This document shows, one piece after another, positions 2,863 through 22,963 of a DNA stretch of 32,000 bases. Position 1 is the stretch's first letter. Every line of letters begins with the position of its first letter. A program made the translations under genes and the position numbers. The notes below the pieces were generated by a model. The model saw only the letters and a program-made list of their open reading frames with translations. It was not told where the DNA came from and ran no database searches. Source of the DNA: Gemmata obscuriglobus (GTDB lineage: Bacteria > Planctomycetota > Planctomycetia > Gemmatales > Gemmataceae); NCBI RefSeq assembly GCF_008065095.1, contig NZ_CP042911.1, forward strand, positions 6,090,001 through 6,122,000, in the 5' to 3' direction.

Positions 2863-3066
2863 GAACCGCCCCTCCCCGACGACCGCTATACCCTCTTCTG
2901 CCGGCGGACTCGCCCGAACTGTCCGGCGCGCCACGACCGCGCCAGCACGAGCGCCGCCCGCGATTCCTTTCGCACACCGATCTCTTTCACAGCGGTCGGC
3001 GGTGAATCCCCTCCGATTACGAACCTGCCGCCACGGAAGCGGCGTTTCCTCGGAAGGGTTTCCACC

Positions 3067-3513
3067 ATGCGTTCACTGCTCCTCGCGGCCATCGGCGCGT
3101 TCGCCGTGTCAGGTACCGCCGCCGCACAGCAGCCCCAGTACCAACCGGCCCGCTACCCGGCCCCGTCGCCGGCCGCGGCTGCTGCGACGCCGCTCCAACC
3201 GGCCTCCGGCACCACCGTCATCAGCGGCGGCGCCGGGTGCAGCAACTGCGGCACCACCACCGGCCCCGTTCGCGGGTTCGTGATGTCCGGGGTGTCGGCC
3301 CCCGGGTGCCAGCTCGGCGCCCCGTGCAACAGCGGGTGCGGCAGCATCAAGAGCGACCTCGCGTTCCAGTTCGGCTCGTGCAAGAACTTCTTCTCGCCGT
3401 GCGGCCCGACCTGGGGTGGCTTCGGCCACAAGTGCCCGACCGGCCCGATGAACCAGCCCTGGGGCACCGGGTACGGCTGCCCCCGCGCCTACGACAGCCA
3501 CGCGAACCACTAA
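3067..3513 (+). CDS. secreted Cys-rich hypothetical protein
   Basis: Signal peptide MRSLLLAAIGAFAVSGTAAAQ, a Pro/Ala-rich linker, then 12 Cys in GC/CG contexts. GGAAGG lies 9 nt upstream of the ATG. Confidence 0.6.
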   Translation: MRSLLLAAIGAFAVSGTAAAQQPQYQPARYPAPSPAAAAATPLQPASGTTVISGGAGCSNCGTTTGPVRGFVMSGVSAPGCQLGAPCNSGCGSIKSDLAFQFGSCKNFFSPCGPTWGGFGHKCPTGPMNQPWGTGYGCPRAYDSHANH

Positions 3514-3520
3514 TTCGGTT

Positions 3521-3740
3521 CCAGTAGTTTCAAGTTCGCGCCGGGCAGGGGTTCTGGCCTTTGAGTGTGGTCCGCTCACTCCGTGAGCGGCCGCGCCGCG
3601 CACCAGATTAGCTCCGCGAGCTTGCTGGCCCCATCGTTGTGCGCAACGCGAATTCGATATTTGAAGCGACCGCTCACGGAGTGAGCGGACCACACTCAGA
3701 ACCACGGCACGGGTACTCCACGCCCACTTGAAACTACTGG
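3521..3740. repeat. composite nested inverted repeat (MITE/REP-like element)
   Basis: Outer arms 3521-3535 ccagtagtttcaagt and 3726-3740 acttgaaactactgg are complementary at 15/15. Inner arms 3562-3590 and 3670-3698 are complementary at 29/29. Each inner arm contains its own 8-bp palindrome ccgctcac-N3-gtgagcgg. Confidence 0.85.
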
Positions 3741-3758
3741 GTTCCGGCTCTCTGGTTT

Positions 3759-3831
3759 CAGTCCGCAAGCCGTCAAGTCGAAGATCAACTCGCATGGAGC
3801 GAAGGTCTTCAACTTGACGGCTTGCGGACTG
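3759..3831. repeat. long hairpin (20-bp perfect stem, extendable to about 27 bp)
   Basis: 3759-3778 cagtccgcaagccgtcaagt is the exact reverse complement of 3812-3831 acttgacggcttgcggactg. Pairing continues inward with one mismatch and one G-U. It lies between convergent genes. Confidence 0.8.
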
Positions 3832-3936
3832 ATTCACTTTACGCCTGAACGACACCCACTCACCACCAATCACCAGACAATCACCTTGCCAGTTCTGCAT
3901 GGCATCACGGGACCTCGATTTACACCTACCGCAGCG

Positions 3937-4629
3937 TCACCCCTTCCCGAGCACGAGATCGACCGCCCAGCACCCGCGGACGTGTTCGCCCGGCTCGCGA
4001 CAGTGGTTGAGGATGTCGTCGGAGGTGCAACCGGCGTCCTGAAGCGCGTCCGCCAGGATGGGCATCGCACTGAAATCGCGCGACTCATACATCTGGTGGG
4101 CGAGGGCAACGGCGGTGTCGGTGCGCCACTCGGGGACGAAAATGATGGGGCGGAAAGGGTTACCGAAGATGTCACGAAGCGGCTCTTCGAGCAGCAACGC
4201 GCGATAGGCGGACAAGGCCGGGTCGTATGGCTCGTGCCTGTCCAAAGTCATCAGGGCGTTGGCAAAGTAGGCGGCGGCGGTTTCCGATGTGCGTCGCGAG
4301 TCGGGGCGTTGCCCTCGCAAGTTGCGGAGGGAAGTGGAGTCGTCGATCCAATCCGCCGTTCGTCGCTGCCCCTCGGCCGCTTCCAGGCGAAACGCAGCGC
4401 CTTCGCTCGCGTACTCCAACCGCTCGTACCCTTCGTCGCGCTGCGCCTGGCCGTCGGCGTACCGCTCGATCCAATCGAGCGCGTCGCGGATCGCCCGCTG
4501 TGTCAGAAGTGGCCCATGCCCCCGGCAGCACGCTACGCCGTATAGCCACAATTTCCGGTCACCGGGAGGGCGGTTCAGATATCTCAACAACTGAACCGGA
4601 GTACCGGCCAACCATTCGGCCTCGCTCAT
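3937..4629 (-). CDS. hypothetical protein of a planctomycete/myxobacterial paralogous family
   Basis: N-terminal ...LLRYLNRPPGDRKLWLYGVACCR... and C-terminal ...MPILADALQDAGCTSDDILNHCREPGEHVRGCWAVDLVLGK modules recur in Gemmata-type genomes. ATG at 4627-4629. Confidence 0.7.
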   Translation of the reverse strand: MSEAEWLAGTPVQLLRYLNRPPGDRKLWLYGVACCRGHGPLLTQRAIRDALDWIERYADGQAQRDEGYERLEYASEGAAFRLEAAEGQRRTADWIDDSTSLRNLRGQRPDSRRTSETAAAYFANALMTLDRHEPYDPALSAYRALLLEEPLRDIFGNPFRPIIFVPEWRTDTAVALAHQMYESRDFSAMPILADALQDAGCTSDDILNHCREPGEHVRGCWAVDLVLGKG

Positions 4630-4693
4630 CGCCTCTCCCCGGAACGACCGCGGCCGGGTTGCCCCGGCCGTTCGTCGGTGCTTCGGCCCCCGG

Positions 4694-5431
4694 TCAGCCT
4701 TGTGGGCGGGCCGCGGCGTTCTTCTTCGCCTTCGGCGGGCCGAGGATCTCCTGCAGCACCACCGCCATCGCCACCCCCTGGCCGCTTCCGAGTAGCACGG
4801 TCAGGTTCTTGCCGAAGTTGGTTTTCGCGAGCGGCCGCGGGCGGTTCGCGAACCGCGTCACCTTCGTCGCGGGCGCGCCGGTGGCCGAACTCGTCTTCAG
4901 CACCTGCGCGACCGGCAGCTCTTCGATCTGCGCGGCGACCGGGGCGGCACGCGTCGGAGCTTGCGGGGACGCACTGAACCCGCCGCCCGCCGGCATCGGG
5001 TCGGCGAGTTCCGCGATCACCCGCGTGCGCGGCTTCTCGGCCGCCGGTCTGATCGGCTGAACCACGGGGGTGACCGGCGGGGACGAGCCGGGCGCGGCCG
5101 GCGCCGGGTCCGGGCTCATCGCGGCCTTGCGGCGCAGCCGATCGATCTCCGCCAGGAACCGGTCCATGTCCGACGCGGCCGGCTTCACCGAGGTGCTGCT
5201 GCTCGTCTCGGTGGTCGGGGTCGCGCGGACCGGGCGGGCGGTGGGGCGCTCGGCGCGCTCGTCGTCGCGCTCGGACCGGCGGCGCCGGTCGCGCTCGGCC
5301 CGTTCGTACCGCTCCCGCTCCAGCCGGCGCTGGTTGGCGGTTTCCTGCAAGTTGTTCAGGAACTTCGCCACCGCGCCCACGACGGTCGAGATGATGACCA
5401 GCGTGATGATGAGCCAGAAGCCGTTACCCAT
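4694..5431 (-). CDS. hypothetical single-pass membrane protein with charged, low-complexity tail
   Basis: ORF 4694..5482 trimmed to the ATG at 5429-5431 (MGNGFWLIITLVIISTVVGAVAKFL, a TM helix), followed by an R/E-rich and then a P/A-rich region. It is the last gene of the NfeD-FloA operon, same strand. Confidence 0.6.
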   Translation of the reverse strand: MGNGFWLIITLVIISTVVGAVAKFLNNLQETANQRRLERERYERAERDRRRRSERDDERAERPTARPVRATPTTETSSSTSVKPAASDMDRFLAEIDRLRRKAAMSPDPAPAAPGSSPPVTPVVQPIRPAAEKPRTRVIAELADPMPAGGGFSASPQAPTRAAPVAAQIEELPVAQVLKTSSATGAPATKVTRFANRPRPLAKTNFGKNLTVLLGSGQGVAMAVVLQEILGPPKAKKNAAARPQG

Positions 5432-5468: not shown

Positions 5469-5582
5469 CCGGAGCGAACCACAGAGGTGCCGAGGCGCGC
5501 AGAAAGGCGTGATGGGGAGAATGCCGTTCAACGCTCCCTCTCTGGCCTTTCTATGCCTCAGCGTCGCTGTGGTTCGCTCCGG
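5469..5582 (-). repeat. intra-operon long hairpin between floA and the downstream gene
   Basis: 5469-5484 ccggagcgaaccacag is the exact reverse complement of 5567-5582 ctgtggttcgctccgg (16/16). Nested inner stems include gaggc..agaaaggc / gcctttct..gcctc and gggag/ctccc. Confidence 0.75.
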
Positions 5583-7423: not shown

Positions 7424-7436
7424 GGCTTCGAGTGCG

Positions 7437-7544
7437 GAATTCGGAGTGCGGAACGCGAAACCGTAACAGCCGCGGAATGCGTAAGAGCGGAATCACTCCC
7501 GTTCTGGGTTTTATTCCGCGTTCCGAGTTCCGCACTCCGAATTC
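7437..7544. repeat. inverted repeat filling the nfeD-nfeD intergenic spacer (GGAAY heptad type)
   Basis: 7437-7454 gaattcggagtgcggaac is the exact reverse complement of 7527-7544 gttccgcactccgaattc (18/18). An inner 7-bp pair gcggaat/attccgc is also present. The left side reads GCGGAAT TCGGAGT GCGGAAC GCGAAAC with 7-nt period. Confidence 0.85.
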
Positions 7545-10160: not shown

Positions 10161-11453
10161 ATGCGCAGGGTGGTAATCTCGGGCTTGGGCGTCGTGGCTC
10201 CGAACGGGGTCGGCAAAGACGCGTTTTGGCAAGCTTGCGTGGACGGGCACAGCGGGATCGGGCCGATCCGCTCGTTCGACGCCTCCAACCACCCGATCGG
10301 GGTGGCCGGTGAGGTATTGGACTTCGATCCCGAGCCGTTCATCCCCGACAAGTTCCGCAAGTCCGTCAAGGTGATGGGCCGGGCGGCGCGGTTCGGGATC
10401 GGCGCCGCGGGCCTGGCCGTCGCCGACAGCGGCCTCGACCTCGCGGCCATCAACCCGGAGCGGCTCGGGGTGGTGATGGGCACCGGGCTGGTGCCCATGG
10501 ACCTGGGCGAGCTCGCGCCGCTGCTGGCCCGCGCGTGCCAGGAGGACGGCGAGTTCGACGCGACGAAGCTCCCGGACCCGAACCGGCCGGACTCGCCGCT
10601 GTTCCCGCTGTGGCTGCTGAAGTACCTGCCGAACATGGCGGCGGCGCACATCTCGATGGCGTTCAACTGCCAGGGGCCGAACAACACGGTCGTGACCGCG
10701 TGCGTCGCGGGCACCCAGGCCGTTGGGGAGGGGTTCCGGCTGATCGCCCGCGGCGACGCGGACGTGATGCTGTGCGGCGGCGCCGACAGCCGCATCGACC
10801 CGCTGATGCTGCTGGCGTACACGTCGCTGGGGACGCTGAGCAAGTCGAACGGGCGCGCCCCGGAGGAGCGGTCGCGGCCGTTCGACCGGCTCCGCGACGG
10901 GTTCGTGATCAGCGAGGGCGCCGCGGTTCTCGTGCTCGAAGACTACGAGCGGGCGAAGGCCCGCAACGCCCCGATCTACGCCGAGGTCAAGGGCTGGGGC
11001 AGCACCTTCGACGCCTACTCCGTCACGAAGCCCGACCCGGAAGGGCGCGGGGGCGCGCGCGCGATCCAGGCCGCGCTGACGGAAGCGGAAGTCGACTTCC
11101 GCGACGTCGGGTACATCAACGCGCACGGCACCAGCACGAAGCTGAACGACCTGATGGAAACGGCGGCCGTGAAGCGGGTGTTCGGGGACCACGCCCGCGA
11201 AGTACAGTTGTCGTCGATCAAGTCGATGATCGGGCACTCGATCGGCGCGAGCGGCGCCATCGAAGCGGCGGCGCTCGCGATGAGCCTGAAGACGCAGGTG
11301 TACCCGCCGACGATCAACCTGAAGAACCCGGACCCGGGGTGCGACCTGGACTACATCCCGAACACGGCGCGCGAGGCGCGGGTGCGGTACGGGCTCTCCA
11401 CCAGCTTCGGGTTCGGCGGCCAGAACGGCGCGCTGGTGATGGCCGCGGTCTGA
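10161..11453 (+). CDS. fabF: beta-ketoacyl-ACP synthase II
   Basis: MRRVVISGLGVVAPNG start. Catalytic Cys context VVTACVAGTQAVG and the two His motifs NAHGTST and IGHSIGASG. ORF 9996.. trimmed to the ATG at 10161. Confidence 0.9.
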   Translation: MRRVVISGLGVVAPNGVGKDAFWQACVDGHSGIGPIRSFDASNHPIGVAGEVLDFDPEPFIPDKFRKSVKVMGRAARFGIGAAGLAVADSGLDLAAINPERLGVVMGTGLVPMDLGELAPLLARACQEDGEFDATKLPDPNRPDSPLFPLWLLKYLPNMAAAHISMAFNCQGPNNTVVTACVAGTQAVGEGFRLIARGDADVMLCGGADSRIDPLMLLAYTSLGTLSKSNGRAPEERSRPFDRLRDGFVISEGAAVLVLEDYERAKARNAPIYAEVKGWGSTFDAYSVTKPDPEGRGGARAIQAALTEAEVDFRDVGYINAHGTSTKLNDLMETAAVKRVFGDHAREVQLSSIKSMIGHSIGASGAIEAAALAMSLKTQVYPPTINLKNPDPGCDLDYIPNTAREARVRYGLSTSFGFGGQNGALVMAAV

Positions 11454-13075: not shown

Positions 13076-13208
13076 GCGTGCCTTCCCACTTCAGTGATGC
13101 CCGCGGGTATTCTCGCACCCGTGAGCACCGCTGTCACGCGATGACGCCCCGCGCACCCGTTCCGGTCCCGTGTTGCAGTTGCCGGCTACGAAGTGGGGCC
13201 GGACCTCA

Positions 13209-13261
13209 ACGAGCCCGCGGCGTGAAGGGGCACCGTGTGCCCCTTCACGCCGCGGGCTCGT
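13209..13261 (-). terminator. 25-bp perfect hairpin downstream of the pirin gene (I-shaped terminator candidate)
   Basis: 13210-13233 cgagcccgcggcgtgaaggggcac is the exact reverse complement of 13237-13260, with a 3-nt loop and an extra A-T pair at 13209/13261. It lies 39 nt after the pirin stop. There is no U-tract. Confidence 0.6.
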
Positions 13262-13299
13262 CGAAACAATGTGTGACCGCAACCGGATCCGGGCACGCG

Positions 13300-15660: not shown

Positions 15661-15772
15661 GAGGCGGAAATGTGGATGCCGGAGGCGCGGTGCTCAAACT
15701 GATCGCCCCGCGCCACGCGCAAAAGCAGCCCGCACGATCTGATTCACGACCCGGCTGGTGGTATCTGTTTCT

Positions 15773-15838
15773 TGTGGCACAGACATTCCTGTCTGTGCAG
15801 GGCGATAAGGCCGCACAGACAGGAATGTCTGTGCCACA
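15773..15838 (-). terminator. 26-bp perfect inverted repeat with self-palindromic arms, downstream of the PepSY gene
   Basis: 15773-15798 tgtggcacagacattcctgtctgtgc is the exact reverse complement of 15813-15838, with a 14-nt spacer. Each arm is itself gcacagaca-N4-tgtctgtgc. It lies 51 nt after the stop at 15889. Confidence 0.6.
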
Positions 15839-15888
15839 AAGACAAAAACCAAAACAGACAGCACCAACCGGATTGTGAGTGAATGAGG

Positions 15889-18477: not shown

Positions 18478-18654
18478 ATGAGCGATAAAGACCCAGAGGA
18501 TGACCGCGACGAACCTGCTGCGACGGGCGGGTCCGAGCGGACCATCCAGGCGGACGAATTGTTCGCGGGCAAACGTGAGGTGTGGATCGAGCTGGAAGGC
18601 GTGCGCTACCGGTTACGGATCACACGCCGCGGCAAGCTGATTTTGCAGAAGTGA
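18478..18654 (+). CDS. hemP: HemP-family hemin-uptake small protein (58 aa, not in the ORF track)
   Basis: Hand translation gives MSDKDPEDDRDEPAATGGSERTIQADELFAGKREVWIELEGVRYRLRITRRGKLILQK*. The C-terminal ...EL..G.REV.IE..G..Y.LR.T..GKLIL.K matches the HemP (PF10636) pattern. Confidence 0.8.
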   Translation: MSDKDPEDDRDEPAATGGSERTIQADELFAGKREVWIELEGVRYRLRITRRGKLILQK

Positions 18655-18714
18655 GAATGACCTTGTCCGCGAGAGGGGCGTTTCCGGACCGCTGACAACG
18701 TCATTCTCACTTCT
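18647..18714. terminator. 15-bp hairpin spanning the convergent 3' ends of hemP and prmC
   Basis: 18648-18661 gaagtgagaatgac is the exact reverse complement of 18700-18713 gtcattctcacttc, plus an A-T pair at 18647/18714. The arms include the stop codons of both genes. Confidence 0.5.
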
Positions 18715-20863: not shown

Positions 20864-21224
20864 CTGTACACCCCGAAACGGCGCGCGAGGGCCGCAGACA
20901 GCATACGGACGCCGGCCCGTGCGCGTCGTTTCAGTGCCGCACTCCGCGGCCTCAACAGGCAGCGCGTGGCGCGAACGAAAGCGGCTTCGCCTTCACGGCC
21001 GCCGTGCCGCAGAGCGCGACGGGGCGGCGCCACGCAAAGCAATTTCTTTGGTGCCAAGAAGCGCGACCGGGCAAACGGCACACAGAGAAGCCCGCGGCGG
21101 AGCAACCACCGCGGACCGATCGCCCCGCGCCGCCCGCGCGGGTGAGCGGAGCGCAACCCGGCGTTGCGACATCAGAGTTGTAGGCGCTCCGATTCGACCG
21201 GGTGAGCGTGGCCCGGGCCGACTT

Positions 21225-21344
21225 CAGTCGTTTCAGGTTCCAGGGTCCAAGTTCCAAGTGGAGTCACGAGCGACACGAATCGCCGGCGCCTGTGACGAGT
21301 TGGGTTCCGACTTGGAACTTGGAACCTGGAACCTGAAACGACTG
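21225..21344. repeat. 35-bp near-perfect inverted repeat made of GGAAC/GTTCC heptads
   Basis: 21225-21259 cagtcgtttcaggttccagggtccaagttccaagt pairs with 21310-21344 acttggaacttggaacctggaacctgaaacgactg at 34/35. GGAAC starts at 21314, 21321 and 21328, and GAAAC at 21335, all 7 nt apart. It lies 32 nt after the thiC stop. Confidence 0.85.
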
Positions 21345-21375
21345 GAATCGGTCTACGGCCCGCGGCCCTCGCCTC

Positions 21376-22953
<1,578 letters not shown>

Positions 22954-22963
22954 TCAATGAGAA

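What the first reader, a model, noticed from the sequence alone, without database searches (positions are those of the whole stretch)
3521..3740. 220-bp nested inverted-repeat element between convergent genes, related to the element at 21225-21344
There are two tiers of perfect complementarity: outer arms 15/15 (3521-3535 and 3726-3740) and inner arms 29/29 (3562-3590 and 3670-3698), around a 79-nt core. Each inner arm contains its own palindrome (ccgctcac-N3-gtgagcgg), so the locus can fold either as one long hairpin or as two local hairpins. The outer terminus cagtagtttcaagttc matches cagtcgtttcaggttc at 21225-21240 at 14/16, and the right ends share TGAAAC(T/G)ACTGG. That looks like the terminal inverted repeats of a non-autonomous mobile element or a REP/BIME-like family rather than a simple terminator.
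Basis: seen in the sequence. Interest (0 to 1): 0.65.

Follow-up and report, generated by a model that had tools for sequence, protein, structure and literature searches.

The report
Gemmata MITE with ISH3-type ends
The 220-bp nested hairpin is a small non-coding mobile element (a MITE) that carries the same ends, and made the same 5-bp target duplication, as a 1.26-kb transposase-encoding insertion sequence found in many copies in the same Gemmata obscuriglobus genome; this is an ordinary kind of element, apparently not yet described for this bacterium.

Summary
Outer arms (15/15), inner arms (29/29, extending to 33 nt at 97%) and the two small palindromes lie where stated. The shared terminal motif occurs 4 times in the window against 0.14 expected.

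The window is from Gemmata obscuriglobus. That species carries at least 13 copies of a 1257-bp insertion sequence with termini CAGTAGTTTCAAGTT. Each of the seven copies examined (five from G. obscuriglobus, two from Gemmataceae CJuql4) has a perfect 5-bp target-site duplication of the form RRNTC. Its transposase meets the published sequence-level criteria of the ISH3 family.

The element proper is 3522-3739 (218 bp, no credible ORF). Its left end matches the IS terminus 15/15 and its right end 14/15. It is flanked by a perfect 5-bp duplication, GGTTC, that fits the IS target pattern.

Homologous but decayed copies lie at two other G. obscuriglobus loci and one G. algarum locus. The inner stem is kept in them through compensatory changes.

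The element at 21225-21344 shares the terminus class but has a different interior and an imperfect duplication.

It is not a REP/BIME and not a canonical terminator. Genome-wide copy number and empty-site polymorphism could not be measured. New member of a known kind, modest interest.

The parts
3522..3739 (.). MITE-A, the complete non-autonomous element (218 bp)
   Evidence: Bounded by inverted CAGTAGTTTCAAGT termini that match the Gemmata IS ends. No credible ORF: the only long overlapping ORF has GC3 of 0.55. No specific Rfam family.
3517..3521 (.). Left copy of the 5-bp target-site duplication, GGTTC
   Evidence: Identical to 3740-3744. Fits the RRNTC pattern of the duplications at 7 IS copies.
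3740..3744 (.). Right copy of the 5-bp target-site duplication, GGTTC
3522..3540 (+). Left terminal inverted repeat, CAGTAGTTTCAAGTTCGCG
   Evidence: First 15 nt are identical to both ends of the G. obscuriglobus IS in L124-L128.
3721..3739 (-). Right terminal inverted repeat (reverse complement CAGTAGTTTCAAGTGGGCG)
   Evidence: Matches the IS terminus 14/15 and pairs with the left repeat (pair I3).
3562..3594 (.). Left inner arm, containing the small palindrome 3572-3590
   Evidence: I1, D1. Conserved in L145, L036 and L128.
3595..3665 (.). Variable central core
   Evidence: Poorly conserved and of different length among family copies.
3666..3698 (.). Right inner arm, containing the small palindrome 3670-3688
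   Evidence: Pairs with the left arm and is kept by compensatory changes in other copies.
21225..21344 (.). MITE-B: a 120-bp element with the same terminus class (CAGTCGTTTCAGGTT, 13/15 to the IS terminus), 35-42-nt inverted arms and an unrelated interior
   Evidence: Flanking pentamers GACTT and GAATC match only 3/5. It starts about 30 nt past the thiC-like ORF 21376-22911(-).
3067..3513 (+). Upstream convergent gene: 148-aa Cys-rich protein with a hydrophobic N-terminus and no Pfam match
   Evidence: GC3 0.92. Called gene in public assemblies. No Pfam hit.
3937..4629 (-). Downstream convergent gene: 230-aa protein with no Pfam match

Best explanation
Window 3522-3739 is a miniature inverted-repeat transposable element (MITE). 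It is a 218-bp non-coding element that carries the transposase-recognition ends of an ISH3-type DDE insertion sequence resident in the same Gemmata obscuriglobus genome.

The IS transposase (385 aa, P0052) is inferred to have bound the two CAGTAGTTTCAAGT termini in trans. It would have moved the element and inserted it with a 5-bp staggered cut at GGTTC, in the gap between two convergent genes. That cut produced the flanking GGTTC duplication.

The interior is not derived from the IS. It is a family-specific long inverted repeat that contains two small palindromes, so the element folds into one long hairpin.

The element at 21225-21344 is a second, shorter element of the same terminus class with a different interior.

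Shown here: identity of the ends, the target duplication, the target pattern, IS presence in the same species, and dispersed homologous copies. Inferred: trans-mobilisation by this transposase, and any effect on transcription of the neighbouring genes.
For: 1. Species. Window proteins and the transposase P0052, which sources name as Gemmata obscuriglobus, both lie on a 9,032,617-bp contig.

2. Parent IS. P0052 is encoded at 13 or more places in assembly GCA_000171775.1. The IS is 1257 bp with ends CAGTAGTTTCAAGTTGG. A 1236-bp relative with the same ends is present in two copies in Gemmataceae CJuql4.

3. Target duplication. All 7 IS copies examined have perfect 5-bp duplications: GAATC, GGATC, AACTC, GAATC, GATTC, AATTC, AAATC. 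The window element has a perfect GGTTC that fits the same pattern.

4. Ends. The element matches the IS terminus 15/15 on the left and 14/15 on the right. The motif occurs 4 times in the window against 0.14 expected.

5. Transposase family. Pfam DDE_Tnp_1 E = 1.8e-7. NCBIfam ISH3 family E = 3.7e-46 to 3.8e-43. The motif YRTRFGIESSYR is Y-(2)-R-(3)-E-(3)-R. Ends CAGT, size and 5-bp duplication match the ISH3 definition in PMC2266710.

6. Dispersed homologues. Copies with the same left end and inner arms lie at L145:18349 and L128:67 (G. obscuriglobus) and at L036:~1802 (G. algarum), all at unrelated loci.

7. Family-specific interior. The small palindrome occurs only inside these copies in about 100 kb of G. 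obscuriglobus DNA.

8. Structure. The inner stem is kept by changes on both sides at 5 stem positions among three copies.
Against: - Only the window copy has both ends and a target duplication. The other three family copies have a decayed or missing right end, so recent activity of the family is not demonstrated.
- The interior shares nothing with the IS beyond about 19 nt. Derivation from the IS is therefore limited to the ends.
- No empty site was found, because synteny ends exactly at this junction in the available relatives.
- Genome-wide copy number was not measured.
- The NCBIfam ISH3 score (148-158 bits) is below the curated cutoff of 225.
- MITE-B lacks a clean duplication.
Confidence: 0.86

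Rival explanations
1. A locus-specific bidirectional transcription terminator or RNA-stability hairpin that evolved in place between the convergent genes, whose resemblance to the IS ends is coincidental.
For: It sits between two convergent 3' ends, 8 nt after the stop of 3067-3513. The hairpin is extremely stable. The inner stem is conserved with compensatory changes. The L145 and L128 copies also lie between convergent genes.
Against: A 15/15 match to the IS termini plus a perfect 5-bp flanking duplication of the IS target type is not expected for an element that evolved in place. Homologous copies lie at unrelated loci and in another species. There is no T-run after the stem, and the terminator scan found no site inside the element. 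A terminator effect as a by-product of the insertion is not excluded.
Confidence: 0.05
2. A REP/BIME-type repeated extragenic palindrome, spread by a RAYT (IS200/IS605-like tyrosine transposase) rather than by a DDE transposase.
For: It is an extragenic palindromic repeat. The terminus contains GTAG, which from memory resembles the conserved head of REP sequences. The window holds several other intergenic hairpin families.
Against: REPs are units of about 20-40 nt without target duplications (established knowledge). This is a 218-bp unit with terminal inverted repeats identical to those of a DDE IS, and it has a 5-bp duplication. The terminal motif bounds full-length DDE IS copies in three Gemmataceae genomes. 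No RAYT was searched for or seen.
Confidence: 0.03
3. A decayed remnant of ancient insertions that is no longer mobile: an IS that lost its interior, or an end-capture event that happened once and was then copied by recombination or segmental duplication rather than by transposition.
For: Three of the four family copies lack a recognisable right end. MITE-B has non-matching flanks, as expected after recombination between copies.
Against: The window copy has intact ends and a perfect duplication at a site that fits the IS target pattern. This is the signature of a transposase-mediated insertion. The copies have unrelated flanks.
Confidence: 0.06

Closest known systems
Bacterial and archaeal MITEs mobilised in trans by a resident DDE insertion sequence. 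Examples from memory: the SM1-SM4 elements of Saccharolobus solfataricus paired with ISC elements, and IS630- or IS5-derived MITEs in bacteria.
   Same: Small (218 bp) and non-coding. Terminal inverted repeats identical to those of a co-resident IS. Target duplication of the parent's length and sequence preference. Intergenic location. Folds into a long hairpin.
   Different: The interior is unrelated to the parent IS. It is a family-specific nested palindrome maintained by compensatory changes. Only one intact copy has been seen so far. The host is a planctomycete, for which the literature search found no MITE description.
ISH3 family of insertion sequences (De Palmenaer et al. 2008, PMC2266710), as the family of the autonomous partner
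   Same: Length 1236-1257 bp (range 1225-1500). Ends CAGT (CRGT). 5-bp direct repeats. Transposase motif Y-(2)-R-(3)-E-(3)-R. Best NCBIfam match is ISH3.
   Different: The family was described as restricted to archaea and later as very strongly enriched in archaea and found in fewer than 9 phyla. Here it is in Gemmataceae bacteria. The NCBIfam score is below the curated cutoff. The duplications are RRNTC rather than the A...T-flanked repeats described.
Correia elements (CREE) of Neisseria (from memory)
   Same: Elements of about 100-200 bp with inverted-repeat ends, forming hairpins, sitting close to gene ends, and able to influence transcript termination and processing.
   Different: Correia elements make a TA duplication, have no identified co-resident parent IS, and number in the hundreds. 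Here the parent IS is identified, the duplication is 5 bp, and the copy number is unknown.
REP/BIME elements of proteobacteria
   Same: Extragenic palindromic repeats, often between convergent genes.
   Different: REPs are short units spread by RAYT tyrosine transposases without target duplication. This element has DDE-type terminal repeats and a 5-bp duplication.

Membership tests
MITE (non-autonomous derivative or passenger of a DDE IS) | Small size and no transposase or other credible ORF | tested here: met
   218 bp. The only long ORF across it, 3109-3900(-), has GC3 of 0.55, against 0.78-0.93 for the real genes.
MITE (non-autonomous derivative or passenger of a DDE IS) | Terminal inverted repeats matching those of an autonomous IS in the same genome | tested here: met
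   Matches CAGTAGTTTCAAGTT 15/15 on the left and 14/15 on the right. That sequence forms the ends of the 1257-bp IS in G. obscuriglobus L124-L128. Same species by shared 9,032,617-bp contig.
MITE (non-autonomous derivative or passenger of a DDE IS) | Flanking target-site duplication of the parent's length | tested here: met
   GGTTC at 3517-3521 and 3740-3744. Seven of seven IS copies have perfect 5-bp duplications of the pattern RRNTC.
MITE (non-autonomous derivative or passenger of a DDE IS) | Multiple dispersed copies in the genome | tested here: inconclusive
   Homologous copies at L145:18349 and L128:67 (G. obscuriglobus) and at L036 (G. algarum), all with decayed right ends. The whole genome could not be scanned.
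MITE (non-autonomous derivative or passenger of a DDE IS) | Presence/absence (empty-site) polymorphism | tested here: inconclusive
   In G. algarum and in metagenomic and Logan relatives, gene order ends at this junction, so there is no comparable site. Short-read contigs of the same strain break inside the hairpin.
ISH3 family (parent IS) | Length 1225-1500 bp | tested here: met
   1257 bp (G. obscuriglobus) and 1236 bp (CJuql4). Definition from PMC2266710.
ISH3 family (parent IS) | Conserved ends CRGT | tested here: met
   Both ends begin CAGT.
ISH3 family (parent IS) | Direct repeats of 4-5 bp, typically 5 | tested here: met
   Seven of seven copies have 5 bp.
ISH3 family (parent IS) | Transposase with an incomplete YREK motif, Y-(2)-R-(3)-E-(3)-(R) | tested here: met
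   P0052 and the CJuql4 protein contain YRTRFGIESSYR.
ISH3 family (parent IS) | Score above the curated NCBIfam ISH3 model cutoff | tested here: not met
   NF033541 is the best hit with E = 3.7e-46, but 157.6 bits is below the cutoff of 225. This fits a divergent bacterial branch rather than a core member.
REP/BIME | Short (about 20-40 nt) palindromic unit spread without target duplication by a RAYT | tested here: not met
   A 218-bp unit with DDE-IS terminal repeats and a 5-bp duplication. RAYT presence was not tested.
Intrinsic (Rho-independent) terminator | G+C-rich stem followed directly by a T/U run | tested here: not met
   No terminator-like site inside 3517-3744. The two sites found in 3000-4800 lie elsewhere and do not exceed the shuffle expectation.

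The most novel reading that the evidence does not exclude
The family-specific interior is a long stem with two embedded palindromes. It is kept by compensatory changes in copies from two Gemmata species, even where the transposition ends have decayed. It may have been co-opted by the host as a bidirectional terminator or RNA-stability/processing hairpin at the 3' ends of convergent genes. Three of the four family copies lie between convergent genes. On this reading, an archaeal-type (ISH3) transposon system would be seeding regulatory hairpins in a planctomycete.
Probability: 0.15. Interest if true: 0.5.

Novelty: new member of a known kind. Interest (0 to 1): 0.3.

Why it matters
- It explains a conspicuous structure with a concrete, testable mechanism and links it to an identified transposase.
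- It shows that an IS family regarded as essentially archaeal is active in Gemmataceae, with at least 13 identical transposase copies, and has non-autonomous passengers there.
- It explains why short-read assemblies of this genome break at this locus.
- MITE hairpins at gene ends can alter termination and mRNA stability, so annotators and transcriptome studies of Gemmata should mask or track them.
- It is not a new class of element.

Tried and rejected
- **Genome scan.** It returned mostly chance matches from unrelated phyla. It was useful only because five Gemmataceae loci were among them. It gave no copy count.
- **Metagenome scan.** The pattern (terminus, gap, TTGAGTG) returned one AT-rich chance hit.
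- **Plasmid collection.** No match.
- **Rfam.** Nothing at gathering score. At the relaxed threshold only generic hairpin (miRNA-precursor) models matched, on both strands. Rejected as non-specific.
- **Empty-site search.** FloA orthologues were used as anchors in G. algarum, JGI metagenomes and Logan assemblies. Gene order stops at the 230-aa gene or earlier, so no comparable junction exists.
- **Look-ups not on record.** The truncated 86-aa cluster mate from the second complete assembly and the 747-aa ORF at the right of the window.
- **Internal-deletion origin.** Tested whether the interior is an internal-deletion remnant of the IS. No similarity beyond about 19 nt.
- **Independent REP.** Tested whether the small palindrome is a separate REP-like repeat. 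It occurs only inside family copies.
- **Second hairpin.** Considered whether the hairpin at 3758-3832 belongs to the element. It lies outside the duplication and has no copy in the sampled DNA.

Full report
**1. Observation**

- Outer arms 3521-3535 and 3726-3740 are 15/15 complementary.
- Inner arms 3562-3590 and 3670-3698 are 29/29. The repeat finder extends them to 33 nt at 97%.
- Each inner arm holds the palindrome CCGCTCAC-N3-GTGAGCGG.
- The terminal motif CCAGTMGTTTCARGTTC, with up to 3 mismatches, is found four times in the window: at both ends of this element and at both ends of the element at 21224-21345. Shuffles gave 0.14.
- The whole unit folds into one hairpin. As RNA it is -133.6 kcal/mol with z = -11.4. 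As DNA it is -82.3 kcal/mol with z = -13.3.
- The neighbours are convergent genes. 3067-3513(+) has GC3 of 0.92 and 3937-4629(-) has GC3 of 0.78. Both are called in public assemblies. The ORF that runs across the element has GC3 of 0.55 and is spurious.

**2. Where the ends come from**

It still contained five Gemmataceae loci, far more than that family's share of the collection would predict.

- In Gemmataceae CJuql4, the motif in inverted orientation bounds a 1236-bp segment. This segment is present at two loci at 99.8% identity (L033 174-1409, L084 3269-4504). It encodes a 390-aa protein.
- That protein matches Pfam DDE_Tnp_1 (E = 1.8e-7). Its best NCBIfam match is the ISH3 family transposase (E = 3.8e-43, below the curated cutoff).
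- A protein search found 333 relatives, most on contigs of about 1.3 kb, as expected for a repeated IS. One of them is P0052, which its sources name as a Gemmata obscuriglobus transposase. It lies on a 9,032,617-bp contig.
- The window's own proteins lie on a contig of that same length. The window is therefore G. obscuriglobus.
- P0052 is encoded at 13 or more places in draft assembly GCA_000171775.1.
- In five of those places the IS is 1257 bp with ends CAGTAGTTTCAAGTTGG.

**3. Target duplication**

All seven IS copies inspected have a perfect 5-bp direct repeat immediately outside CAGT...ACTG. The repeats are GAATC, GGATC, AACTC, GAATC, GATTC, AATTC and AAATC, which gives the pattern RRNTC, often followed by CG.

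The window element follows the same rule. Bounded as CAGTAG...CTACTG (3522-3739, 218 bp), it is flanked by GGTTC on both sides (3517-3521 and 3740-3744), followed by CGG.

Its left end matches the IS terminus 15/15 and its right end 14/15. Beyond about 19 nt there is no similarity to the IS. So it carries IS ends around an unrelated interior and is not a simple internal deletion.

**4. Family of the parent IS**

De Palmenaer et al. (PMC2266710) define ISH3 by four features: 1225-1500 bp, ends CRGT, direct repeats of 4-5 bp (typically 5), and a transposase motif Y-(2)-R-(3)-E-(3)-(R).

The Gemmata IS meets all four. It is 1236-1257 bp, its ends are CAGT, its repeats are 5 bp, and it contains YRTRFGIESSYR.

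The NCBIfam ISH3 model is the best hit (E = 3.7e-46), but at 157.6 bits it is below the cutoff of 225. I read this as a divergent bacterial branch.

ISH3 was described as restricted to archaea in 2008. In 2022 it was described as very strongly enriched in archaea and found in fewer than nine phyla.

**5. Other copies**

- G. algarum (L036, about 1802-1610 on the minus strand). It has the same left end, subterminal sequence and inner arms at an unrelated locus. The core is shorter and different, and the right end matches only 9/15.
- G. obscuriglobus, L128:67. This copy was found in about 85 kb of additional DNA sampled around IS copies and to the left of the window. It has a left end CAGTCGTTTCAAGTT and is truncated on the right.
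- G. obscuriglobus, L145:18349. It has an exact left end and both inner arms, but no right end is recognisable. A hairpin of about 55 bp made of terminus-like sequence precedes it.
- The small palindrome occurs only inside these copies.
- Among three copies, the long stem is preserved by changes on both sides at five stem positions. For example, one pair is U-A, C-G or G-U, and others are A-U/G-C and C-G/U-A. The hairpin is therefore maintained. With so few copies I cannot say whether that reflects selection or arm-to-arm correction.
- The window, L145 and L128 copies all lie between convergent genes.
- Two remnants in about 85 kb of neutrally sampled DNA would extrapolate to tens or hundreds of copies in 9 Mb. 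This is a very rough estimate and not a count.

**6. The second element**

21225-21344 (120 bp) has ends CAGTCGTTTCAGGTT, which match the IS terminus 13/15. It has long near-perfect arms built from GGAAC(C/T)T-like units and an interior unrelated to MITE-A.

Its flanking pentamers, GACTT and GAATC, agree at only 3 of 5 positions. It starts about 30 nt past the 3' end of the thiC-like ORF.

It is best read as an older or rearranged element of the same terminus class.

**7. Mechanism**

Shown:
- the ends are identical to those of a co-resident multi-copy DDE IS;
- the duplication has that IS's length and target pattern;
- homologous copies are dispersed across loci and species.

Inferred: the ISH3-type transposase recognised the ends in trans and inserted the element with a 5-bp staggered cut.

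The hairpin may incidentally terminate or stabilise the two convergent transcripts. It lacks a T-run, however, and the terminator scan found nothing in it.

**8. Rivals**

- A purely local terminator does not explain the IS-identical ends, the duplication or the copies elsewhere.
- A REP/BIME reading fails on unit size, DDE-type ends and the duplication.
- A dead relic spread by recombination remains possible for the decayed copies and for MITE-B. It does not fit the intact window copy.

**9. What could not be done**

- Whole-genome copy counting was not possible.
- No empty site could be compared, because synteny ends at this junction in all the relatives available.
- Short-read contigs of the same strain end inside the inner arms or inside the neighbouring hairpin. 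They therefore give no information on polymorphism.
- No paper describing MITEs in Gemmata was found.

**10. Verdict**

This is a new member of a known kind. The points of modest interest are the archaeal-type IS partner in a planctomycete and the structurally maintained interior.

Noticed in passing
window 3758-3832: A second, separate hairpin (27-nt arms, 96% complementary, 21-nt loop) lies 13 nt to the right of the MITE's target duplication, in the same intergenic gap. No copy was found in about 100 kb of other G. obscuriglobus DNA. One Logan contig ends inside it.
   Followed up: partly
window 7430-7544 and 22715-22744; L127 about 1385-1409; L145 7876, 11212-11246, 15338: Another repeat family built on GAGTGCGGAATTCGGAGTGCGGAAC forms an intergenic hairpin at 7430-7544 and recurs elsewhere. 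One IS copy (L127) has inserted at the AATTC inside such a repeat.
   Followed up: partly
window 13206-13264, 15772-15839, 5469-5582, 18647-18714: There are several more long inverted repeats, each with a different sequence: 28-nt arms with a 3-nt loop, 27/27 perfect arms, and others. The window holds an unusual number of long hairpins.
   Followed up: no
window 22827-22925 (-): A TPP riboswitch match (RF00059) scores 49.3 bits, E = 1.2e-8, just under the gathering score of 54.3. It lies upstream of the thiC-like gene. The ORF start at 22911 is therefore over-extended.
   Followed up: partly
window 4653-4673 and 22935-22955 (both read on the minus strand): A 21-nt motif, GAACGGCCGGGGCAAMCCGGC, is shared 20/21. 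One copy is about 25-45 nt upstream of the 230-aa gene start. The other is just upstream of the TPP riboswitch. It could be a promoter or leader element.
   Followed up: no
L033, L084, L090 (left flank of the IS): In CJuql4 and Gemmata sp. IIL30, three IS copies are all preceded by CTCATACCG immediately before their differing 5-bp duplications. This suggests insertion into another repeated sequence or an extended target preference.
   Followed up: no
L145 18293-18347: A hairpin of about 55 bp (CCCGTAGTTTCAAGCT...AAACTACGGG) made of terminus-like sequence lies directly in front of the family-A copy. It may be a minimal two-end derivative.
   Followed up: no
L142 7454 onwards: A diverged IS copy in G. 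obscuriglobus has the end CAGTAGTTTCGTGTT, followed by sequence similar to the transposase 3' coding region on the reverse strand. It probably corresponds to the 293-aa relative P0108.
   Followed up: no
L001, L002, L146, L147, L148 contig ends (window 3579 and 3675); L150 (about window 3552); L003 (about window 3818): Most independent short-read assemblies of this strain break inside the 33-nt inner arms (window 3579 and 3675). L150 ends at about 3552, inside the element but before the inner arm, and L003 ends in the neighbouring hairpin. This is an assembly artefact of long perfect inverted repeats.
   Followed up: yes
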